This document shows positions 1,258 to 53,307 of a DNA stretch of 64,000 nt, one piece after another. The notes beneath the pieces were generated by a model that had not been told where the DNA came from, made no database searches, and saw only the letters and a program-made list of their open reading frames with translations. The stretch comes from Octopus vulgaris (taxonomy: Eukaryota): positions 3,658,001 through 3,722,000 of the forward strand of contig OX597821.1 of the NCBI GenBank assembly GCA_951406725.2. The letters run 5' to 3'. How positions within the stretch are numbered: position 1 is the first letter of the stretch; each line of letters opens with the position of its first letter. Both the position numbers and the translations under genes were made by a program.

Positions 1258-2580
1258 ACATGGCCGTGTAAATCTCCACGGATAGATTTACACCACGATG
1301 AATGATGTGTATTCACAATATTCAAGAATGATTTATGCTATCCATTTCATTGTTTAGGATTTATAAACGAAATCTATCTTCATTCAGATTTGTTCTTGTA
1401 TCTTTTCTGAAAAGTGAATTCTACAGGGGAGGTTTTAACTTTGTGCAATTTACGCAGAATATTGAAAAGTTTCCCTTTTAACCGGCAACATTATGCTTGC
1501 TATGAACATTGGATCCGTTCTCATCGTCCAAAATGAAAATGCAAAGGAAGTCGAGAGCAATTTACGACACTACACTACAGAATATCAAGCGGTGTAGTTG
1601 TTATTAGTAATGTGTACCAGTTTTATCCAGCCGGTCCTTAAGATCGAAAACATTTTAATGCAGAAGGCCCTATCTTTTCAATTGTATTCTACATCTAGCG
1701 ACCTCATTCTCTCTATCATGTACTTTTTAAATTTCTATTTATTAAATACACGCAATTCACGGTTTATCTCATCTATCGTATACAGGAAACCTCTACTTAC
1801 AATCTCATTGACTAAACGTTCTGTTAGACAGTTTAATTTGATATTGTGTTCAACTGTACTCAAATCGATCATCCCATCTTGTCAGACGTATTCTATATCT
1901 GGCTACATTATACAATTTGTTATATTTTTAGAAAGATTTCTGCTTTTATATGCACTAATATGTGTTTCGAGTTCTCACTGTTCTTTAGAAAGGATGAAAC
2001 AACCACTTAGACATTCGTTCATTAGCTCGATGTGAGTCGACGATGTGGAGAAATTGAGGAGAATAACATACCTGTATACATGTGTTATTAAATACTTTTT
2101 CTTTTTTACTTGACACATACCGGTGAATATTGTACAGAAGGGGGCAGAATGTAGGATATTAATTAAAGTGTTTCACACGTGCCGAATATCCGTATTGGTA
2201 GAGTAATGCAAAATATTAAAACACGGGCGAAATAACTTGATAATCAATGTAGCGAGAGAGATTTAAGATAAATGAGAGTAGTTTGCAAAATGTTGTGCTT
2301 TACAAATATGTTTCAGATGAGAATTTGTCACGTTCCACTATCGAAATATCCAGCATGGAAATATATTGATATCGTATCGCATGATAAGGTCACAGAGTGG
2401 TAGGTACCACGTGATAAACTTATTTCAGGCATCGGTGAAGCAAATTAATCTATATCGCGGGGCATGAATGTATCTTGTAACAAAATCGCTTCATTTCTCT
2501 ATCAATCAACTCTTTATAATAATTACCTATACGTATAGAAACGAGCAAACACGTGCACACTCAAAAACATATACGCTTCA

Positions 2581-2644
<64 letters not shown>

Positions 2645-2645
2645 G

Positions 2646-2698
<53 letters not shown>

Positions 2699-2699
2699 A

Positions 2700-2776
<77 letters not shown>

Positions 2777-2825
2777 GATATCTATCTACCTACCTACCTA
2801 CCTACCTACCTATCTATCTATCTAC
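2581..2825. repeat. (TATC)n/(TACC)n microsatellite followed by (TA)-rich low complexity to about 3290
   Basis: Read directly from the sequence. Confidence 0.95.
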
Positions 2826-2963
2826 CTCTCCCTTTCGCCCCTTCTCTCTCCATCTCTCTCTTCCTATTTCTCCCTCTCTCTCCATATAAATATATATAGA
2901 GAGAGATGGATAGATAGATAGATAAATAAATATATATATAGAGATAGATAGATATGCAATGTG

Positions 2964-2994
<31 letters not shown>

Positions 2995-3029
2995 ATATAT
3001 ATATATACGTCTATATGTATCTAAATATA

Positions 3030-3080
<51 letters not shown>

Positions 3081-3155
3081 TATATATATTTATATATATA
3101 TATATATGGAATATATATATTTATGCGTATGTATATATATATATATATGTATATG

Positions 3156-3224
<69 letters not shown>

Positions 3225-3548
3225 AGATATATACATACAAAGATAGATAAGCACGCGCACGCGCACACACACACATATATACAGTGGTATGTCTATGGAA
3301 TTTATTACTTTTGACTAGATCTTCATTCAGTAGACAACAGTTATGTTTAGACATCTTTAAATGATGTTAGTTATAGTTTAACACTCAACCTAGCGGGCAA
3401 TTTTTTATTTTTATGTCTTTCTTGAACTATGAAGTTGATCGTCGAGTTTTACTCACCAGCACATTATGTAAAGTAGAGAAACACAATCATAATTTATATA
3501 TGGGGTTATATCACAGACATAACTAAGTGTATGCATACGTGTGTTGGT

Positions 3549-3620
<72 letters not shown>

Positions 3621-3626
<6 letters not shown>

Positions 3627-3780
3627 TTTATTGGGAGACAAAAGACGAAGACAAGTGTATGAAGAATATGCAGGTGTATTAGTTTGACGCTCGGGAAAGT
3701 CTTTTACGTTTCGAGATTATAATCTTCAACAGAAAGGAATAACAGAAAATAAACAGAGACAATTAAAATAAACTTGTGGA

Positions 3781-3837
<57 letters not shown>

Positions 3838-3989
3838 GTATATATATATATATGTTTGTATATAGATATATATATGTACATATTTATATATATATATATA
3901 TACATATATATACATACACATATACATATATATATATACATATATATATATATACATATATATATACATATATATACATATATATATAC

Positions 3990-4048
<59 letters not shown>

Positions 4049-4840
4049 CATATACATACATATATATACATATATATATATATACATATATATATACATA
4101 TACACATACATACATATATATATATACATATACATACATATATATACATATATATATATGCATATATATATATATACATATACATATATATATACATATA
4201 CTTATATATACATATATACACATGTATATATATATAAATATATTGCGCCGTGAACAGGTATTAATTTTCTCTCTTCGATCCTTTGCACCACATGGTCCTA
4301 ACTCTCCTCTTCTCTTCATCTAACCTCCTGCTCTCTCCCCTTCACACCTACTCCTTCCCACCCACCTCTCCTCTCTTGGTCCGACCCTTACTTCTTCTCA
4401 TGACTTCTATTCTCCTCCCAACAGCATCACACCACAGCACACACCATTACACCATACACCACCATACCACACAACATCACATCACTTCAAACCAAGCCAC
4501 CTCGCACAAACTAGCACTGATCACTTCCCAGCCCCACATCCACGCACCGAGACATACACACACGCACACGTCAAGGTCACCAGCCCTCTATCATAAGCAC
4601 GTACATACTCTTATACACACGCACCTTCTTCCTAGTTCTTTTCTGTGACCCCTCTATCCGGCATTCTCCATGATAGATCTCTATTCTTTATTTTCTCTCC
4701 TTGTTTTTTTCTGTCTTCCTTTCTGTGTAAGTGCGTAGGCTCGAAACGTTAAATACTTTATCACTTCCCAAGCGTTAAACTAATATATCTGTTTGTTGTC
4801 TACACCACCTGTCTTCATCTTTTTTTTTGTGAATTCTCCC
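3621..4840 (+). mobile_element. Penelope-like element remnant: inverted pLTR (about 3621-3780), TA tract, GIY-YIG C-terminus, 3' UTR and pLTR (about 4680-4840)
   Basis: 4243-4323 encodes [25 protein letters not shown], matching the RxxExxLIFxLxTxxPxGxN end of PLE endonucleases. 3621-3780 is a diverged reverse complement of 4680-4840. Both arms carry degenerate hammerhead-like cores. Confidence 0.7.
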
Positions 4841-4863
4841 TATATATATATATATATATATAT

Positions 4864-6550
4864 AAACTTAGATAAACTTAGATATGTTTCGACCAATGAT
4901 TGGTCCAGGTCATGTCTAACTTAATAGCACCACCTGATAGGATTATTTGAATCCTCTTTAAGTCAAGTTTGTTTATGGTCCATTCAAATAGTGAGTTTTT
5001 GTTGGGTTAGTTGTAACCAATTATGGGTGGCTTATCTGGTATTCCTTGAAGGAATCTATCCAGATTCCGTTTAAAGTTGGTGGGATCCTGTTCCTCGTTG
5101 ATCTCTTTCGGGACAATGTTAAATAGGGCAGGGCCTGTTGAGGAAAAGAAATTATGTTGTAGTGTACATGTATGCTGTGACCTTGAATTGGGCAGGTGAC
5201 GTATAGCCCGTGGTCCAAGTCTTGGATGAACCTTGAAGCTAATGTTCAGGTCGTTTGGGCAAATTTGGCGGTATATTCTCCACATCGTACAAATGATGTA
5301 CCACTCACGGCGACGCTGGAGAGAGTAGAGTTTCAAGGCTTTAAGGCGATCCCAATAATCGAGAGCAGCCATGCCTTCAATTCGTTTAGTGAGTGCTCTC
5401 TGGGGTGATTCAATCCGCGAGATTTTTTGTCTTGTATGGGGAGACCACAGTGGGCAGCAGGATTCGAGGTGTGGCCGTACAAAGGAGGAGAAAAGTGGTA
5501 TGATGACACCTTGTTCTCTGGACCGGAAAGTTCTTAAGATCCAGAAACTCATCCTACGAGCTATATCGACCTTCTTGTTGATGTGTGCACTCCAACTGAG
5601 ATCGTCATCAACAATTACACCCAGGTTTCTGATATTGTTAGAGGTTGTGAGCGGTTCCCCTGAAGGAAGAGAGTATGGCTGTTTTAGTGAGGAATTTCTT
5701 CTAAAATGCATCAGCTCAAATTTTCCCTCGTTCAGTTGCATGTTGTTTCTGTCTGCCCATTGACTCACAGAATATAGATCAGACTGGAGTTGAGTTCGGT
5801 TTGTTCTTCATTGACGATTTGCTGGAGCTTAGTTTCATCAGCAAATATTTTCTCTTTGCAGCAATGTACGACACTGGAAAGGTCGTTTATGTAGATTATG
5901 AAGAGTAGCGGACCCACGACTGTCCCCTGGGGGACACCGCTGGTGACTTTTGCTGGGCTTGAGTGGACTCCATCAACTACAACATGTTGTGTTCTATTCG
6001 CCAGGAAATACTTGATCCAGTGTAGAACTTTTCCACGGATTCCAACATTTGCCAATTTTGAGAGTAGGATATTATGGTCTACTCTGTCGAACGCTTTACC
6101 GTCAAGATATATGACATCAGAGTTCGAACCTGTTCCCAAGGCTTTGAGTACACCTTCAATGTGGTGTAAGAGCTGTGTTAGACAGTCCCTGCCACAGCGA
6201 AAGTCATGCTGATTTGCGTTTAGGAGTTTGTGGGTCTCCAGGAAGTCAGCTATCCTTGATCTTAACAGTCTTTCAAACACTTTGATGATGTGGGAGGTGA
6301 GTGAGATTGGGCAATAGTTGAGTGTGAGGGATCTGTTTCCCTGTTTGAAAACCGGGATGACTGACTGGGATAGAAACTGTTTCGGTATATAACCTGCGTC
6401 TAACGACTGCAAGTTGGTGTCTATATTCCTTCAGGAGACTAGCGGGGAATCTATCAAGGCCTACAGCAGAGTAGTATTTGCTCTCATTTATTGCTGCTTT
6501 GATGTCAGTGGCAGTGAAGGTTATGTCAGATTTTATGTTGAGAGTCAACT
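4864..6550 (-). mobile_element. 5'-truncated CR1/L2-group LINE (reverse transcriptase pseudogene)
   Basis: Frameshifted ORFs 6273-6548, 5765-6412 and 5007-5768 contain PISLTSHIIKVFE, DVIYLDGKAFDRVDH, SGVPQGTVVGPLLFIIYIND, FADETKL (catalytic DD changed to DE), W..N.MQLNEGK and VRPHLESCCPLWSP. Tandem (ATCTAAGTTT) 3' tail at 4864-4885. Confidence 0.9.
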
Positions 6551-8345: not shown

Positions 8346-11300
8346 TTTTTTTTCTTCTTTCAAATTTGCTTCCGTTTCTTGCCGAGTGTCTTCCCGACTC
8401 CTAGGGCAAAGAAACTCATAGTGTATATTGGTAGGCCATTAAACCAAACTCAGTATTTCGTTCATATATTTTTTTTTTTTTAAAGTTAAATTAAAATACA
8501 TGAGCAGCAACAGTTCTCACATCGACAATGCTCTTCTCAATACGTGTGATGTACCAGTTAAGACAATCTTTTGCACTTCTTGCAGGGATGGTAAGCCAGG
8601 GATCATTCTCATATAATTTTCGGTTCCCTTCTTGATCATTCCTAGTGCTCCTACGATCACTGGTATTGTAACCGCCTTGAGATGCCACATTTTCTCAATT
8701 TCAATGAGTAGGTCTTTATATTTTCTGAGCTTGTCAAACTCTTTCGCTGAGATATTATGATCACAGGGGATGCTCATGTCGATCAATAAGCAAACTTTAT
8801 TGTTTTGGTCTTTCACAACAATATCTGGTTTATTGGCCTTGATGGTTCGGTCTGTATGTACTGGAAAGTCCCACAGAATGGTTACATTTTCTCCTTCAGT
8901 TACAGCCTCAGGGTGGTGATTATACCACTTGTCGGCAGTTTTGATATTGTAATGCCGACTTATTAGCCAGTGGAGATATTGGTCAACTCTGTCATGTCTT
9001 AATTTATACTCCACTGGTGCTAAGACTTTACATCCAGAGATTAGGTGGTCCACTGTTTCAATCATGTCGTTGCAGAATCGGCATTTTGGGTCTGCTCCAT
9101 TTTTCATCACTTTGGCCTGGTAGTTCCGGGTTAATAGGCTTTGGTCTTGAGCAGCCAGGATGAAACCTTCACTCTCTGCTTTTAGCCCTGAGCTCCGCAG
9201 CCACTGATGGGTTTGCTTCTGATCAACATCTGCTTGTTTGCTGCGGGTCACATATTTGCCGTGCAGAGGTTTCTCCTCCCACCTATCAGCCAATTGCTCG
9301 TGTGCTTTTTTCATTGCCATCATTTTCACCTTCTTTGCAACAATAGTTGCCGTACTTCCCTCGGGTTGTTCAGTTTGGGTATCCTGCACGAGATCAATAG
9401 CAAATTTTTTGCTTTCCTTGATGATAGAATGAAGCTTCTTTCGTCTCTCGTGATTTTCCACGAGCTTTAGCATCCAGTCATTCGATATTTCGAGATATTT
9501 GGCCAGTCCAATTGTGGTTGTTTTGTAAGCTAGTTCAAATTGGATCAGGCCTCGACCTCCTTGGGCTCTGGGAAGGTAAAGGCGATCTACGTCTGCCTTT
9601 GGGTGGTGCATCCTATTACAACTCAGCAGCTTGCGTATTTTTCTATTTATATTCTTTACTTCACTCATATTCCAGTTCAACACATTGTAGCTATAAGTAA
9701 CAACTGGAACTGCTAAGGAATTTATAGCTAACACCTTGTTACGTGCATTTAGTTCAGATTTCAGGACTGCACGAGCTCTCCTATAACATTCCTTCCTGAT
9801 TTTCTCTTTCATGCTTGCATGCTGAATACCAGAGCCTTCATTTATCCCTAAATATTTGTATGTTTGTTCTTGCTCAAGCTCTCTTATGACTGTGTCAACA
9901 TCTAACACGACTGAATTTGTGGTCTTCACTTTCCCTTTCTGGAAAGTGGCCTTGGCACACTTCTCAAGTCCAAACTCCATCCCGATGTCATCGCTGAATG
10001 CTTTCACGGTGCGCAATAGGCCTTCAAGTTCCTTATTGTCTTTACCATAAAGTTTTAAGTCATCCATATAAAATAGATGGCTTATTTTTTTATTGGCAAT
10101 TTTACACATACCCTGTTCTGTTTAATTCACTTGTTAGGGGTATTAGGGCTATGCAGAATATTAAAGTTGAAAGTGAGTCACCTTGAAAAATTCCACAGTT
10201 GATGTTTATATTTTCTGAGGCAAGTACTCCATTAGAGTGGTATAATTGGAGATTCGTATTCCACAACGACATATTGTGCTTCAGGAAGTTTGAAATCACA
10301 GGGGAAATTTTGAAGATGTCCAGCGATCTCAAGATCCATGGATGCGGTATACTGTCGAAGGCCTTTTTATAGTCAATCCATGCGGTGCTGAGATTTCTGC
10401 GCTTGTTGTGACAGTTCTCAAGGATCATACGATTGATTAGCAGTTGATCTTTGCATCCGTAAGAGCCTCGGCGGCACCCTTTTTGTTCAATGGGGAAAAT
10501 ATCGTTCTTCTCCATGAATGCATATGTTTTCTCCGCCAGGATATATGTTAGGATTTTATACGTGGTGGATAGACAGGTTATAGGCCGATAGTTTTTTGGA
10601 AGGTTGGTTTCGTTATTCTTTGGGAGTAGGTAAGTAATGCCACTTGCTAACCATTCAGGTGTTTTCTTTGGGTCTCTCATAATTCCATTGAGCAGCTGAA
10701 CTAGCTTACCGTGTGCGCAAGGGAGCGATGCGAGCCAGAAATTCGGCACCCTATCTTTACCGGGGGATTTCCAATTATGGGCCTTCGTGAGTGCCTTTCT
10801 TAGGTCTGCTATTGTGATGTCTTCCCATGCTTGTTGTTGTAAATTTTGGTAGGATCCTTCAGTTTGTATAATCCAGTCTGCATTTATGTTGTACGTCTTC
10901 TTGTCACTCCAAATCCTTTTCCAAAAGTTTTGAACTTCTTCCATGGGAGGGGGGTCTTTAACGGTTACTTTCTCCTTCCCTATTTCTCTGTAGAATTTTT
11001 TGGCATTGGATGTGAACAGCTTATTTTGCTTGTAAAACTTGTTTCTCTTCTCAAATCTTCGTATTCTTTGGGCTTTTGCTTGGACTTTTTGTTTCAGCGT
11101 TTCTTTTATTGATATCAGTTCTTCTCTTGGTGAGGATCCAAATTTTCTCTTCATCTTTCTTCCTGTTCTGGATCTTACATCATTTCCACATATTAGTTCA
11201 TTTAAAATTGATATTTCCCCTCTCATAAATTCAATCTCTTTTTCAATTTTATTTCTCCAGGTTTGATTTCTTCCCAGGTTTTGTTTTCTTTGTTTTTTCG

Positions 11301-11490
11301 GGGGAATACAGCTGGTTTCAATTGCCCTAGCAGAAGCGTAAATAATTTCATTTAACTCAGTAAAATCAGGTTTTAATTCTCGTATTATTTCATTTGTTAC
11401 ATAGTTGCCAATTTGGATTTGTTTTTTATTTTGGTTTGTATTTGAGAGTTTATGAAGCGGTTCTCTATCATTCATACTTGTATGTCTTTT
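8346..11490 (-). mobile_element. R4/Dong-clade non-LTR retrotransposon (RT + CCHC knuckle + restriction-like endonuclease), 5'-truncated, inserted in (TAA)n
   Basis: RT motifs KSPGKD, YRPITCL, EQKGC, AWIDYKKAFDSIPH, GIFQGDSLS, HLFYMDDLKLY, YKYLG. C-terminal CRFC-x7-HLISGC, RHD and KPDIV...IDMS...K..KY. A-rich 3' end at 8346-8353. (TTA)n at 8283-8344 and 11490-11645. Confidence 0.92.
8517..11488 (-). pseudogene. Dong/R4 polyprotein ORF with one frameshift at about 10105
   Basis: ORF 10102-11730 ends ELNRTGYV* and ORF 8517-10109 continues CKIANKKISHLFYMDD. The poly-N start of the first ORF is the flanking (AAT)n tract. Confidence 0.88.
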
Positions 11491-11491
11491 A

Positions 11492-11599
<108 letters not shown>

Positions 11600-11700
11600 T
11601 TATTATTATTATTATAATTATTATTATTATTATTATTATTATTATCATTGTTGTTGTTGCTGTTATTGTTCTTGTTCTTGTTGTTGTTGTCGTCATTTTT

Positions 11701-11920
11701 AAGTCGCTGATCTGGCACAATCATTAGCACGACGGGCGAAATGTTTAGCGGTATTTCGTCCTTCTTTATGTTCTGAGTTCAAATTCTTTCGATGTCGACT
11801 TTGCTTTTCATCCTTTCGGGGTGGAGTAAATAAGTACAGGTTGAGTACTGTGGACGATGTCATAAACTTAATCCTTTCATCCAAATTTCAGACCCTGTAC
11901 TTTCAAAAGAAAAGATTATT
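11701..11920 (+). mobile_element. tRNA-derived SINE, family 2 (Nin/Deu-domain-like core)
   Basis: CTGGCACAATCATTAGCAC...GTTCTGAGTTCAAATTC...GTCGACTTTGCTTTTCATCCTTTCGGGGT...AATAAGTAC; many homologues in the window. Confidence 0.75.
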
Positions 11921-46552: not shown

Positions 46553-48345
46553 ACCTTGACCGACCAGTCCGTCAGGCGTCCATTTGACACCGCTGGTCAC
46601 AGCACGCTGTCCACTCCCCTCTGGATCGCGTCTTTCTCATCCTCGTAATCTCAATCGTCCTCCTGAAATCGTAACTCCACCGTCGTGGATGTCTTCCTGG
46701 TGGTCTTTTCCGCTCGCGGGGGTACCATTCGACAACTGCGAGGGTCCACCGATTATCGGAGAGCCGGGCGACGTGTCCAGCCCATCTATACTTGCTGCGT
46801 GTATACTCTGCGATGACATCTCTCACGCTGGATTTCTTTCTGATGATCTCACTACTGATGTGCTCTCTCAACGAGATACCAGGCATTGACCTTTCCATGG
46901 CTCTTTGAGCCGTTACCAGTCTTTGCTCTTCTCTCTGTGGTAGCCCATGTTTCACTACTATATAACATTGCAGGCAGAACTGTACTGTTAACGAGGTTGG
47001 CGCGGGTGGTCCTGTCCAAACTTCCCTTGAGCACATTCCTTATGCCATTAAACGCCTTCCATCCGGCCCTTACTCTCCGTGAGATCTCCTTTTCGACATC
47101 TCGGCACATATTCACCTCCTGTCCCAGGTAGACATATTCCCTTACCTCCTCTATTTCATCACTGCCGATCACCATTTGGTACGTTGTCTGACCGAATGAA
47201 CTTTGTTTTCATGCAGTTCATCTTGAGATCTACTGAAGAGCTTTTGATGTCGAGCTCCGTCAGCATGGTCTAAAGCTGATCCGTATTTTCAGCGATGAGT
47301 ACGATGTCGTCAGCGAAATGGAGGTGGGTGAGGGGCTCGCCATTGATGTTGACACCACCTTGCCAGTCGATGTCTCTGATGATCTGTTCGAGACATGCAG
47401 TGAAAAGTTTTGAGGAGATTGTATCTCCTTTCTTCACTCCCTTCTCGACCGGCACTCGTATGGGTGATGTCGGTGGTGCATCCGGAATTTGCCTCTCTGA
47501 GCAGCTGCACATATTGCGCTTCGACTTCTTGCCTGTGTAGTGAGTTCAGCACTGAGTTGGTTTCGACGCTATCAAAGGCCTTCTCATAATCTATAAACGC
47601 AACGCAAAGAGGCAGCTCGTACTCATTTACTCGCTCAAGCAGTTGCGTTAGAGTAAATATATGGTCCATCGTGCTGTAGTTCTTCCGGAATCCTGCTTGT
47701 TCCTTTGGTTGTTGTTCGTCGAGACGAGGTGATAGCCTGTTCAGAATTATCTTCGTGAACAGCTTGTACACGTGAGACAGCAGGCATATGGGTCGGTAGT
47801 TCTTTAGATCTACTCTGTCGCCCTTATACAGTAGGATGGTATTTTACTCTTTCCACTGCGAAGGAATTCTTCCCTCGTCTAGTGCGTAAATCGCTCAGCG
47901 AGGATTTTCCCGAGCTGCTCTCTGCCTGACTTTAGCACCTCGGATGTTTTGCCGTCTTTCCCTGGAGCCTTTCCGTTTTTCATCGAGCCGATGGCTCTCT
48001 CAACCTCACTGACACGGATAGGTGGCACGTTTTCTTCATGTTAGAGTGGTGCTAACGGCTGGACATTTCTGGTAGACTTAAAGAGCTTGGTGTAGAAGTC
48101 TTTCGCAAACTTTTTCCATCTCGCTCTTCTCGTTGACCGGTATTCCATCTGTATTTTTCAGGGCCGTCACCTCCAATCTATATAGTACCATGTCCCTCTT
48201 GCATTTCTTGAGGTTTTTCTTTTCCTCTGCGGCCTTCAAGAGCTTCTCCATCCGGTATGCCTCAAAGTCTTTCTTTAGTTGCTGACGAATCACTCTGCTG
48301 AGAATGGAATATTCAAGGTGATCTTCAATAGTCCTCTTCATATTT
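46553..48345 (-). mobile_element. 5'-truncated RTE-clade LINE, multiply frameshifted
   Basis: YKLFTKIILNRL, EQAGFRKNYSTMDHI, FIDYEKAFDSVE, GVKKGDTISSKLF, HLHFADDIVL, EYVYLGQ, WAGHVAR...RWT..VVEWYPR..KR..GR..RRW. Confidence 0.92.
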
Positions 48346-48393: not shown

Positions 48394-49335
48394 TATAGAT
48401 ATATATACATATATATATATATATACATATTAATTTAGTTTATATTAATACGACACAGCATCATCATTGTCAACATCATCAAGAACAGCAACAGCAATAA
48501 CTACTACTAATACTACTACTACAAAATACCAGCATATTTATGTAAATGTAAGAATCACTCTTCACGAAGCAACAGTGAATATTCCAAACGGACTAACCAA
48601 CCGACACGTTCCGACTACACGACGAACTCAACTCGAACTAACAAACAAACTTCACTCCGACCGCTGCTATTTATAATCGCTCAGTCCAGTCTATTTCTTG
48701 CAAGGGGGCGTCGTGACACTCATTAAAACAATGTGTTATACTCAGTACAATATATTGATGGGAAATATTCTATTTGGAACATATACCAGCAGTTACTGAT
48801 TAATGATACACATCGATTTTCTGTGGTTCGATTGAAAATGTAGCTGTTTTGTTTGTACACTAAACACGTTAATAGGTTATCGATGTATTTCTTATCGAAA
48901 AACAATATACTGACAGTCTCCATTAAGAAATGTTAAGTATGTTAAAACAGGCAGGAAGCATGTAGGTGATAGCTTGACCTGTTAGAATAAACAGCCACAT
49001 CTCCTATAACTGTGGTATAGTATCTTCTACGTTCTGCATTTTAATTTAATTAGTTAGATTTCCTCGAAAGATCAACCCAGTGTTTAATTGTTTTGAAGTC
49101 TGCTACTTATTTTATTAGGCAATTTGGAGGCACCGTTAAGTTACGTTGACCTAAAGAAACAAACTCTTGTAATCAAAATTGTTTAAACAGAGATTTAAAC
49201 ACGATTAATTTCATCCCATATGCATATATATATATATATATATAATATTATTAGAGACAAAACCACTATTTTGCAAAACAAACAAGGAAAGACTTAATCA
49301 ATACATAAAATTTTAATAAAAAGTCAAAAAAACCG

Positions 49336-49378
49336 CCACTACAATTGTTTCTTGTCTTGATCGACAATCTTCAGGTGG
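49336..49378 (-). ncRNA. Minimal type I hammerhead ribozyme motif (mirror copy)
   Basis: Exact reverse complement of 50072-50114. Confidence 0.82.
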
Positions 49379-50071
49379 ACTTCCAATCTAAAATATCAAT
49401 ATTTTAAAATATAAAAATAATAATTTTAAAATAATTAAAGTATTAATGAAAAAATATAAATATATAATCTATTTATAACCTATATATAATCCATATATAA
49501 TCAATATATAAACAATATATAAACTAAAATAAACCTATCAACAATTAAATATAAAATATAAAATATAAAATATAAAATATAAAATATAAAACAAAACAAA
49601 AAATAAAAAATAAACTATATATACACCCATACACATATAACTAATTATATATAACCATATCTAAATACATACACTAAATCACACACCTATATATATATCC
49701 CTATACATACACATAAAAACGTCTAGGCAACGATAAATATATAAAATAGCTAAATACTTCAAAACAATACTTATCCATACTCCCTCACACACACATACAA
49801 CCCACATTCCCGCTCTAGAAACGGACATCACTTAAAATTATGAACGGAGAAATGGAATAAATGGAATTAAAAATTTATATTTTATAGTTTATATTTTATA
49901 TTTAATTGTTGATAGGTTTATTTTAGTTTATATATTGTTTATATATTGATTATATATGGATTATATATAGGTTATAAATAGATTATATATTTATATTTTT
50001 TCATTAATACTTTAATTATTTTAAAATTATTATTTTTATATTTTAAAATATTGATATTTTAGATTGGAAGT

Positions 50072-50114
50072 CCACCTGAAGATTGTCGATCAAGACAAGA
50101 AACAATTGTAGTGG
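50072..50114 (+). ncRNA. Minimal type I hammerhead ribozyme motif, predicted cleavage after A50110
   Basis: CCAC CUGAAGA UUGUC GAUCAA GACAA GAAA CAAUUG UA GUGG: perfect 4-bp stem I, 5-bp stem II, full core, GUA triplet, palindromic stem III. Confidence 0.85.
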
Positions 50115-50309
50115 CGGTTTTTTTTACTTTTTATTAAAATTTTATGTATTGATTAAGTCTTTCCTTGTTTGTTTTGCAAAATAGTGGTTTTGTCTCTAAT
50201 AATATTATATAATATTTTACTATAAAATTGGATTTAATCCTAAATCTGATTTTTTCCCTGTAAATTTGGATTTATTCCCTAATATTTATTATATATATAT
50301 ATATATATA

Positions 50310-50760
50310 TCAATGAGAAAACGAAGAAAATGAAGGAATTGACATGTACACATCAGTTTATTTTAAAATATTCAACGCAATATCATATGCATTTATTTTC
50401 CCTACAGCCGTTTCACTAGCCAATTAATTTAATTAGAAAATTTAAATTAAATTAGTTCAAAATTTTTCATACTGAGACCGGTTAATTGAGTATTTCATCA
50501 GGGAAGAATTTACCCAAAATGAGCTACATTCCAACGGTTTGGTCGACCCTTGACAAACTTGACTGAAATATCCAATTAACCAGTTTCAATATAAACATTT
50601 TTATTTAATTTAATCTAATTTAATTTCTGTACTTGAATTAATTGGCTATAAGAACGGCTGTAGGCATAAGAATTTCATATTAGACTGATTTGAACATCTT
50701 TCAATAAACTGATGTCTGAATGTCAATTTCTCCATTTTTTCTTTTACTCACTCATTAATA
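50310..50760. mobile_element. Older, diverged inverted-repeat PLE remnant
   Basis: ACATCAGTTTATT...CCTACAGCCGTT...TAGCCAATTAATT versus AATTAATTGGCTA...AACGGCTGTAGG...AATAAACTGATGT. Confidence 0.65.
50399..50505 (-). ncRNA. Type I hammerhead motif with long stem II
   Basis: Minus strand: UUCC CUGAUGA AAUACUCAAUUAA...UUAAUUGGCUAGU GAAA CGGCUG UA GGGA. Confidence 0.65.
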
Positions 50761-51087: not shown

Positions 51088-51925
51088 GGGTTTGGACACA
51101 ATAATGGTAACACCTAGCATCATAATTTTGAAATATCTATAAAACCGTTAAGAGCTTATTTATTTTTTATGCTTTTTGATCTATTATTAGTGTTGTACAT
51201 TTTGCTGTAAAATTGCTGTATATTTTCAGATATCATCAGAAAGAGGTAATTAAAATTCATTACAATGACAAATCTATCAGACTTTCAAAGAGATCAAAAT
51301 GTTGGAGCTAATATGGCAGACGCTAGCTGAACGAAAACAGCCGAAATGCTTTGTCTATCAATTACTACTGTCTCGAAAGTAATGACAGCCTTTGAGAAAG
51401 AGGGAAAAATCTCCTCGTCGAAAAAATACCCCGAAAGAGAACCAAAACTTTCAGATAGAGTCCGTCGTAATCTTACGGGAATTGTTAGAAAATTACTGCA
51501 GAGCTTAATGACCACCTCGAGAACCCAAGGGCTGCACAAAACCGGATTTTACGGAAGGCCTGCAATCAGAAAACAACTACTTTCAAAAACAAATGTTGCA
51601 AAGCGTTTAGAGTGGAGTAAAACCTACAGAATTGGTCCCAAGAGCAGTGGAAGATAGTTATTTTCTCGGATGATTCATCTTTTACCTTATTTCCGACTAC
51701 CAGCCTAGTATAAGTGTTGAGACAGCCAAAAGAAGCAGTTTACCCAGACTGCCTTTTTCCAACTGTTAAAGATGGAGGAGGATCCGTGATGATCTAGAGG
51801 CGGTGGGGAGGTGCTATATCTTGGAAATGTGCCGTCCCAATGATTTTCCTCCATGGCAGATTTAATAGTCAAGACTATTTACGCATTTTATCTGATCAAA
51901 TTCATCCTATTGCTGCGGAACTGTT
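51086..51925 (+). mobile_element. Tc1-like transposon, decayed and 3'-truncated
   Basis: TIR-like TAGGGGTTTGGACACAATAATGGTAACACC. Peptides MTNLSDFQRDQNVGA...TTVSKVMTAFEKEG (HTH), WKIVIFSDDSSF (W..VIFSDES) and TVKDGGGSVMI (TVKHGGGSVMVW). Confidence 0.88.
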
Positions 51926-53307
51926 TCTACTCCATTAAATCGATCCCAGTAATTCACTGGTACTTAATTCATCGACTTCGAAATGATGAAAGGCAAAGTC
52001 GGTTAAAAAAATATATTTTGGTTAAAAATCAAACCGATATAGTCATAAAGGTCACGTGACTTGTATTTAATAAATCACGGCTTACTAAAAAATTTAAGTG
52101 AACTGGAGATACGAAACGGATCAGCTACAAGGAAATAATAAAGTAGCATCATTATTGAAATCTCTGAAATACTATCCGTTTTCATATTGTTTTGTCGTTA
52201 ATGATGACTACAAACGAGAATGTCTAGTTAGTATCTGGATTTATTAGAAAAACAGGGAAATATTAAATCTAGTTCATAATAAAAGAATAATAATACTAAA
52301 GCATTGTCACTATAGACATAAATTTTGAATATTTTCAGCCGTAAATGGAGACGTTTATTTTTCGATTATTAGAAGTTCTATGAGACTGAAAAATACTGGT
52401 CCGAATTTCGAAGATGTGGTATTTGTTCTTTTTAAAATTTCAATTTCAAAGGAGTTTAATACATTTTCGATAAGGTATAATATCAGAAATTTTCCGCCAT
52501 TGTAGTAGTTTAAATGAAGCCAAACATTTTGTTATTAACGCTTCCCGCAGCATGAATCATATGTTCATTAAAATACTTAATTGAATGCACAATACTATGA
52601 AATTTCTTCGACATATAGATATAGATATACGCTCGATATCATAAGTATTTATGAATACACACAGATTATATACGCATTCTCTCTCCCACACGCACACATG
52701 CACATTAGTTTTAGCAGACATTGACTTCTTCCATCAAAGAGTTTATAACTCTATACGCTGTCCCTCAGTTATTTCTTTAGGATAATCCTCCCGGTGATAA
52801 CATTTTTTGTTTCCTGTCTGTCCATAAGACCGTTACTCTTTATTTATGTGAGTCGCACGTTTTCCCACGTGTTGTCCTGCTTCCTTTCATCTTTCTCTCT
52901 CGTCGGCCCACTAATTGTCTCGTCTTCAATTACATTCATTCCATATTTGTATCTTCACTTTCTGTATCGCATAGTTGTCTATTTCTTGTTTGTTAAGTCA
53001 TTTATCGTCCTGTTTAGTCCATTGTTTGTCAGCTCGCCATCTCCCGGCGACTTCTCTCCGTTGCTGACACCTGGGGATTGTAATATTAATGCTAAGGCGT
53101 AAGATTTCATTTGACCCTCTGGTCGGTAACTCATGAGAATTTCGTGTCCTTCGGTGCCTGCTTCCCGTTTATCTGTACATGGAACGATATGTACGGTTAT
53201 ATTTTTTAACAAGTAATTATTCAAATATATTTGGATGCATATATAGATATATACAAACATAAACATACATTTATAACCAATATCTATATGTATGAATATA
53301 TGTATAC

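What the first reader, a model, noticed from the sequence alone, without database searches (positions are those of the whole stretch)
49245..50290. 43-nt minimal hammerhead duplicated in inverted arms
CCAC CUGAAGA UUGUC-GAUCAA-GACAA GAAA CAAUUG UA|GUGG has every core nucleotide and perfect stems. It is the main complex island in otherwise extremely AT-rich arms and is identical in both, indicating a young insertion. The first stem II pair is U-A rather than the usual G-C. This is the best candidate for an active ribozyme in the window.
Basis: partly seen in the sequence, partly recalled or inferred. Interest (0 to 1): 0.75.

Follow-up and report, generated by a model that had tools for sequence, protein, structure and literature searches.

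The report
Hammerhead of a Penelope-like retrotransposon
This is one of over 3,000 copies of a known kind of small, probably self-cutting RNA carried by a jumping gene, likely silent at this spot, but its sibling copies show that the jumping gene is likely copied twice, head to head, from its own uncut and often spliced message.

Summary
The 43-nt motif is real (+50072-50114, -49378-49336) and not chance. It is the terminal-repeat hammerhead of a young Hydra-clade Penelope-like element (PLE). The genome holds 3,250 such hammerheads and full-length parents with an 840-aa RT-endonuclease ORF. The window is a 5'-truncated, head-to-head insertion in (TA)n. The "U-A first pair" is a Hydra-typical extra position, mismatched in several subfamilies. 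The stem III palindrome covaries, which fits dimer action. The two copies lie on opposite strands: they cannot dimerise, a read-through RNA is predicted to bury them, and the start exon is missing. Activity at this locus is therefore unlikely.

The family is more informative than the locus. All 53 scorable inverted pairs have one short and one long end. 503 copies carry a precise GT-AG spliced junction 8-9 nt before the hammerhead, and those inspected mostly stop at a likely start site. That points to sense, uncut RNA as template and to two primings, against a published antisense self-priming model. Truncations show no clear pile-up at the cut site. Cleavage is untested. The scan noted a similar spliced fold-back in another genome (e1-9506236).

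The parts
50072..50114 (+). Type I minimal hammerhead: stem I 4 bp, CUGAAGA, extra U, stem II UGUC/GACA, extra A, GAAA, palindromic ACAAUUGU, cut predicted after A50110
49336..49378 (-). Identical hammerhead in the inverted copy (cut predicted after 49340)
49874..50291 (+). Forward 5'-truncated copy of the PLE 3' end, with the long end (matches L079 8187-8605 at 98.6%)
49239..49881 (-). Inverted 5'-truncated copy with the short end (matches L079 7904-8528); includes the apparent spacer
49874..49881 (.). Head-to-head junction with 8 AT-only nt shared by both copies (possible microhomology)
50061..50062 (+). Splice acceptor AG of the element's intron, 9 nt before stem I. Sequence upstream of it in this copy is retained intron
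49388..49389 (-). The same acceptor in the inverted copy
   Evidence: arm symmetry
50212..50291 (+). ~80-nt tail between the short and long end sites, present on one arm only
50224..50253 (+). Predicted 13-bp hairpin in the tail, conserved across subfamilies; candidate protein-binding signal (inferred)
49224..49242 (.). (TA)n target, left side
50290..50310 (.). (TA)n target, right side; a target-site duplication cannot be read

Best explanation
The motif is the terminal-repeat hammerhead of a young Hydra-clade Penelope-like retrotransposon, present twice because this truncated insertion consists of two head-to-head copies of the element's 3' end, likely made by two reverse-transcription primings on uncut sense RNA, and it is likely silent at this locus. 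Shown: parent element, copy number, head-to-head anatomy, the one-short-one-long end rule, and precisely spliced sibling copies. Inferred steps: (1) A tandem parent is transcribed from a start site in the upstream repeat, and a 1.3-2.3-kb intron ending 8-9 nt before the hammerhead is spliced out of the 5' leader. (2) The RT-endonuclease cuts both strands of a (TA)n target. (3) One DNA end primes at a site ~98 nt and the other at a site ~182 nt downstream of the hammerhead cut site; the two sites flank a hairpin. (4) Both cDNAs run through the intact hammerhead and are joined at their far ends. Priming in the spliced 5' leader gives intronless mini-palindromes; priming in the unspliced 3' repeat gives long copies such as this one. 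In parent RNA the hammerhead would cut slowly, only as a dimer through its palindromic stem III and perhaps with protein help.
For: Parent: hammerhead - 840-aa ORF - ~4 kb - hammerhead in L079 and others. Hydra motifs are present, and the predicted fold's six best matches are telomerase RTs, best E 4e-10. There are 3,250 hammerheads against 0 for the reversed control. Stem II UGUC/GACA is kept in 185 of 191 copies while loop 2 varies in length. Stem III loop counts are GAUC 374, GAUU 876 and the pair-breaking AAUC 4. The cofold of two 43-mers is the double hammerhead, -22.0 against 2 x -6.5 kcal/mol. Ends: 53 of 53 scorable inverted pairs (58 examined) have one long and one short end. The long-ended arm reaches further in 8 and the short-ended arm in 4 of 13 resolved long pairs (1 equal), so neither is always first. 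Splicing: 503 copies carry the exon-exon junction, and GT donor and AG acceptor match in two subfamilies with different exon ends. None of 28 spliced copies passes 23 nt upstream of the donor, and only 5 exact matches genome-wide go further. Pairs are spliced/spliced 24, intron/intron 19, mixed 0, unclassified 14, of 57. In vitro precedent: two internal RT start sites, both strands extended, uncut RNA as template, protein-assisted hammerhead (PMC11167929).
Against: No cleavage and no transcript were observed; the intron and start site are read from DNA copies only. Pfam finds neither RT nor GIY-YIG in the parent protein, and the sequence searches of solved structures found nothing significant. 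No tree against reference clades was built. The search pattern fixed the core and stem I, so their invariance is partly by construction, and loop counts reflect subfamily expansions, not independent events. In three full-length parents (L079, L087, L092) every exon-1-like repeat found reads GAAAGT, not GTAAGT, at the donor. Two of the 5 extended spliced copies run more than 150 nt upstream, so the 3' intron is sometimes removed. The inverted pairs were picked by me from the first listed rows and favour short gaps. A fold-back model with a variable first site is not excluded.
Confidence: 0.82

Rival explanations
1. This locus itself yields an actively self-cleaving RNA, for instance from a promoter in the spacer that transcribes one arm only.
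For: The core, stems and GUA triplet are intact. GUA is a natural, active triplet (PMC1636495 passages). Eight independent genomic copies begin exactly at the cut site, against 2-3 true junctions at each of two control offsets.
Against: The copies are on opposite strands, and 43 of 43 nt pair with the other arm in read-through folds. The forward-only fold also lacks the active shape. Exon 1 is absent. Monomers of such motifs did not cleave (PMC4209133). Only 1 of 23 listed (TA)n-flanked truncations sits at the cut site.
Confidence: 0.1
2. The inverted arms come from self-priming on an antisense template (Arkhipova et al. 2013), or from fold-back of a single cDNA.
For: Junctions often show short palindromes or shared bases. 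The two arms share subfamily and splice state, and their hammerheads are identical in 47 of 57 pairs, as copying of one cDNA would give.
Against: Precisely spliced arms need a sense template, which excludes the antisense form for those copies. A fold-back from a fixed first site predicts that one end type always has the longer arm; the split is 8 to 4.
Confidence: 0.2
3. The hammerhead works mainly uncut, as a palindromic dimerisation element that pairs two RNAs for an RT dimer.
For: The stem III palindrome is kept by compensatory change. Nearly all cDNAs read through an intact motif. Each inverted insertion needs two primings.
Against: There are no mixed spliced/intron pairs among 43 classified and no cross-subfamily arm pairs among 57. 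The catalytic core is intact in subfamilies found by protein search alone. Naiads build the same inverted structures without a canonical hammerhead (PMC8557442).
Confidence: 0.08
4. It is a non-autonomous retrozyme or MITE-like fold-back element that moves as a 1-kb unit.
For: It is non-coding, has long inverted arms and a high copy number.
Against: Every locus has its own junction and arm lengths, with gaps from 17 nt to 9 kb. Both arms map onto the 3' end of a coding PLE. There is no tandem monomer.
Confidence: 0.03

Closest known systems
Hydra-clade PLEs and their hammerheads (Craig et al. 2021, PMC8557442; seen: passages, section 11, Files S1/S2 and protein passages of the supplement)
   Same: RWK-like (KWK), DKT, CxCX5C, CxxC..E and N..CxH motifs; C-terminal GIY-YIG; (TA)n target; hammerhead with extra opposed nucleotides and a U-A first pair; inverted 5'-truncated copy; one-sided tail.
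   Different: A different family from Hydra-1_Obim (different hammerhead, 2.5 kb). The unit is 6.0-6.8 kb rather than under 3 kb, with a ~4-kb repeat-rich 3' region, an Asn-rich insert of ~110 aa, a tail of ~80 rather than 30-40 nt, and a long intron that is not mentioned for Hydra in what I read.
Minimal PLE hammerheads (Cervera and de la Pena 2014, PMC4209133; seen: parts 1-2 of 4)
   Same: Type I, short helix I, extra nucleotide after A9, palindromic helix III, dimer-dependent and slow. Dual motifs 100-700 bp apart on opposite strands were already noted. The D. virilis intron ends at helix I.
   Different: No G10.1-C11.1 pair; a further extra nucleotide before G12; intronless genomic copies are not described in the parts read.
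Poseidon PAc in vitro (Frangieh et al. 2024, PMC11167929; seen: parts 1-2 of 4)
   Same: Two internal RT start sites define the tail; both target strands are cut and extended; uncut RNA is the main template.
   Different: A different clade. Here the hammerhead lies ~240 nt upstream of the ATG, and the evidence is genomic, including the strict one-long-one-short rule.
Penelope of D. virilis and Pen_Av of Adineta vaga (PMC2377424, passages; PMC3846280, passages and Discussion)
   Same: 5' intron shortly after an Inr-like start (TCACT in A. vaga); inverted pLTR; tail; Asn-rich inserts.
   Different: Those papers stress intron retention and propose an antisense template. Here hundreds of spliced copies exist.
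Non-LTR retrozymes (bioRxiv 10.64898/2026.07.22.740005; seen: part 1 of 5)
   Same: Type I hammerhead linked to PLEs.
   Different: Retrozymes are tandem repeats with a hammerhead per unit; this is a truncated head-to-head stub of a coding element.

Membership tests
Type I hammerhead (PLE minimal type) | Core CUGANGA, GAAA and an NUH triplet | tested here: met
   CUGAAGA, GAAA, GUA
Type I hammerhead (PLE minimal type) | Stems I and II form | tested here: met
   4-bp stem I; stem II kept in 185 of 191 copies with a variable loop
Type I hammerhead (PLE minimal type) | Short palindromic stem III allowing a dimer | tested here: met
   Cofold gives the double hammerhead; GAUC 374, GAUU 876, AAUC 4
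Canonical / Cervera 2014 consensus hammerhead (not filed here) | G10.1-C11.1 pair; match to Rfam models | tested here: not met
   U-A after an extra opposed position; no Rfam hit. The same departure is common in Hydra File S2
Type I hammerhead (PLE minimal type) | Site-specific self-cleavage | not testable with these tools
   Genomic footprint weak; only contigs could be laid
Penelope-like element | Single ORF with a telomerase-like RT | tested here: met
   840-aa ORF; model pLDDT 80.9, top six fold hits are TERT; YRDD in 27 of 28 aligned rows
Penelope-like element | C-terminal GIY-YIG endonuclease | tested here: inconclusive
   VVY...VYIG motif read by eye; Pfam GIY-YIG hit in only 1 of 28 relatives, E 0.003, and none in the parent
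Penelope-like element | pLTR with hammerhead, tandem or inverted 5' copies, tail | tested here: met
Hydra clade | RWK and DKT motifs | tested here: met
   RIKWK and SDKT in the parent; most aligned relatives read RWK and DKT (definition)
Hydra clade | CxCX5C linker, CxxC..E and N..CxH, no CCHH | tested here: met
   CTCRDKSNC, CYLCSNE, LLN..CRH; no CxxC between VVY and YIG (read by eye)
Hydra clade | (TA)n insertion preference | tested here: met
Hydra clade | Generally under 3 kb (a tendency in the paper, not a diagnostic) | tested here: not met
   Hammerhead-to-hammerhead gap 5,953-6,795 nt in 7 of 8 full tandems, 7,985 nt in one
Hydra clade | Phylogenetic placement with reference Hydra RTs | not tested
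   Reference proteins were seen only as supplement text. Database relatives at 32-44% include a Hydra vulgaris protein
Non-LTR retrozyme | Tandem non-coding units, each with a hammerhead | tested here: not met
   Head-to-head stub mapping to a coding element

The most novel reading that the evidence does not exclude
This family's copies settle how Penelope-like elements build inverted ends and keep introns. An asymmetric RT dimer primes once at each of two fixed sites around a hairpin on one sense RNA with its hammerhead uncut. The intron is spliced only in the cap-proximal repeat, which leaves hundreds of dead intronless mini-palindromes, while mobile copies come from the unspliced 3' repeat and so always regain promoter and intron.
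Probability: 0.55. Interest if true: 0.62.

Novelty: new member of a known kind. Interest (0 to 1): 0.4.

Why it matters
The hammerhead itself is ordinary. The family bears on two open PLE questions: why introns are retained and how head-to-head repeats form. Arkhipova et al. 2013 left sense against antisense template open, and Craig et al. 2021 call intron retention unexplained. Spliced inverted copies and the 53-of-53 end rule are genomic evidence for a sense template and two asymmetric primings. They extend the 2024 in vitro result to the Hydra clade and give exact sites for a reconstitution. Three targeted literature searches and three broader ones showed no listing that describes intronless PLE copies. 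The library lacks most subscription papers, including Lunse et al. 2017, and I did not see the supplements of most papers.

Tried and rejected
Rfam: no hit. Pfam on the parent and relatives: no RT, one weak GIY-YIG. PDB sequence searches: nothing significant. RNA evidence: no RNA holder on record. Four contig sets, two only guessed to be RNA, cover 50064-50292 but cannot show ends, strand or level. One contig has a loose end at 50110, but it is one of 88 loose ends over 229 nt, and its first 17 nt were not in my loci or the window, so I gave it no weight. Pile-up of truncations at the cut site: 9 hits (8 independent) against 4 and 4 raw hits at offsets -2 and +2, of which 3 and 2 are true junctions; 1 of 23 distinct loci in the first 100 of 461 overlapping rows. 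This is suggestive at most. A cap-derived G at the start site was considered: in all 4 copies reaching 23 nt the G can come from the other arm, and one further copy lacks it, so it is not claimed. Apparent short/short pairs were tail variants missed by my first classifier, corrected. Identity with Hydra-1_Obim was rejected on hammerhead and length. No host exon was sought beyond an ORF list, which shows mostly repeats and other retroelements. Lunse et al. 2017 is not held.

Full report
Observation. The motif CCAC CUGAAGA U UGUC gaucaa GACA A GAAAC aauu GUA GUGG stands at + 50072-50114 and - 49378-49336. These are the only two hits of a generic type I hammerhead scan of the window, and 60 simulated windows gave no strong hit. 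The arms differ at 2 of 337 positions. Rfam does not detect the motif.

Family and parent. A 172-nt query gave 1,118 first-look candidates in the window's genome; 40 were scored, all 99-100% identical. A pattern with the core and stem I fixed finds 3,250 hammerheads against 0 for the reversed control. Of 14 loci fetched around near-identical ORF hits (18 in all), 8 show hammerheads in tandem around the ORF, 6.0-8.0 kb apart. L079 is typical: hammerhead at 1546, ORF 1825-4347 (840 aa), about 4 kb of repeat-rich sequence, hammerhead at 8384. The protein has KWK, DKT, YRDD, CxCX5C, VYIG, CxxC..E and N..CRH, the diagnostic set of the Hydra clade (PMC8557442 section 11). Its predicted fold best matches telomerase RTs. 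Pfam and PDB sequence searches are blank or weak, and I built no tree. The host is probably a cephalopod; this is an inference from one partial Octopus hit and the genome size.

This locus. Both arms map to the parent's 3' end: an inverted copy (49881 to 49239) and a forward copy (49874-50291) that share 8 AT-only bases at the junction, set in (TA)n. The 'spacer' is simply the part reached by the longer copy. Inverted 5'-truncated copies and one-sided tails are known PLE features, and opposite-strand hammerhead pairs 100-700 bp apart were noted in 2014. A transcript across the locus from either strand is predicted to pair all 43 nt with the other arm, and the first exon is not in the window. 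The ribozyme is therefore likely silent here.

Selection on the ribozyme. At positions left free by the search, stem II UGUC/GACA is kept in 185 of 191 copies while loop 2 varies from 6 to 13 nt among the copies listed. The same layout is common in published Hydra hammerheads (File S2). The stem III loop is AAUU, GAUU (876) or GAUC (374), and almost never AAUC (4). CpG decay of GAUC should give AAUC and GAUU alike, so the variants that spread keep the pair, though these counts are subfamily expansions and not independent events. In a monomer that pair would close a 2-nt loop; two 43-mers cofold into the double hammerhead with an 8-bp helix. Published relatives cut slowly and only as dimers or with protein help.

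What the siblings show. (a) Ends fall at two sites, about 98 and 182 nt after the cut site, around a conserved predicted 13-bp hairpin. Of 58 inverted pairs, 53 could be scored, and all 53 have one long and one short end. I chose these pairs from the first listed rows. (b) Pairs with gaps under 150 nt carry a different upstream sequence: a short exon joined to the base after the AG that lies 8-9 nt before stem I. In parents this exon is followed by GTAAGT about 1.8-2.3 kb upstream. In a second subfamily a different exon end is followed by GTATGT 1.3 kb upstream, and again the join is exact. 503 copies carry the main junction. None of 28 inspected passes 23 nt upstream of the donor, an initiator-like TCACTT; 4 stop exactly there, and two rows share junctions and may be duplicates. 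One further copy goes 2 nt beyond. Five exact matches extend further: three by about 25 nt, two by more than 150 nt. Splice state never differs between arms: 24 spliced/spliced, 19 intron/intron, 0 mixed, 14 unclassified. Against this, three parents lack the GT at the main donor, and no RNA read confirms the intron. (c) Copies starting at the cut site are few (8 independent) and not clearly enriched, so templates were nearly always uncut.

Mechanism. Splicing marks the template as sense RNA, which the antisense self-priming proposal of 2013 does not allow for these copies. The end rule, with either arm able to be the longer (8 to 4), fits two primings, one from each cut target strand, at the two internal sites. 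In vitro, a Poseidon element starts at two internal sites and extends both strands. Priming in the spliced leader runs off the RNA's 5' end and leaves intronless mini-palindromes; priming in the unspliced 3' repeat leaves long copies such as the window's. Why the 3' intron is mostly kept is inferred, not tested: a very short first exon may be recognised only next to the cap. A fold-back with a variable first site remains possible.

Comparison and novelty. It works like, and meets the tested features of, Hydra-clade PLE hammerheads. It fails the G10.1-C11.1 feature of the canonical consensus and is longer than published Hydra elements. The D. virilis intron also ends at helix I and lies just after the start site. 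I found no paper on intronless PLE copies, within a library that lacks most subscription journals. After forming this reading I saw that the scan had noted a spliced Penelope fold-back in another genome (e1-9506236); that is an unchecked AI note, not independent support.

Verdict. A real but ordinary hammerhead in a dead stub, a new member of a known kind. The value lies in the family's record of the PLE mechanism. Interest 0.4.

Noticed in passing
L079 ORF residues ~494-602 (P0002): An Asn-rich, low-confidence insert between the RT thumb and the endonuclease, like the N-rich inserts of Adineta Penelope elements.
   Followed up: partly
L079 4347-8380: The ~4-kb 3' region is built of G/T-rich repeats with internal inverted segments and more than one copy of the exon-1-like motif; in some copies the donor reads GAAAGT, which leaves a possible GT 4 nt downstream.
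   Followed up: partly
L093-L096; L095 near 1596: A related family with 955-962-aa ORFs (about 50% identical over the 130-aa query) has many copies; one has a minimal hammerhead with no loop III about 220 nt before the ORF.
   Followed up: no
L040 3768-7468 +: Another PLE family with Pfam RVT_1 and GIY-YIG hits, preceded by an overlapping 479-aa ORF with no convincing family match.
   Followed up: no
L041 near 5140 + and its inverted copy: A third hammerhead-like motif in an inverted pair beside a PLE ORF fragment.
   Followed up: no
window 50181-50197: A conserved AUAGUGGUUUUGUCUC motif just before the short end repeats the UAGUGG of the hammerhead's 3' strand and could pair with the 5' strand of stem I as an alternative fold (seen; not tested).
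   Followed up: no
window 8517-11778 -, 5007-6430 -, 46572-48340 -, 51270-52000 +: Other mobile elements: a nearly whole RT element in two long frames, RT fragments, and a decayed transposase-like stretch (labels recalled from motifs).
   Followed up: no
runs X12, X16, X17 (organisms B, C, D): The same hammerhead region, with the A50104G loop variant, is present in three other organisms' contigs.
   Followed up: no
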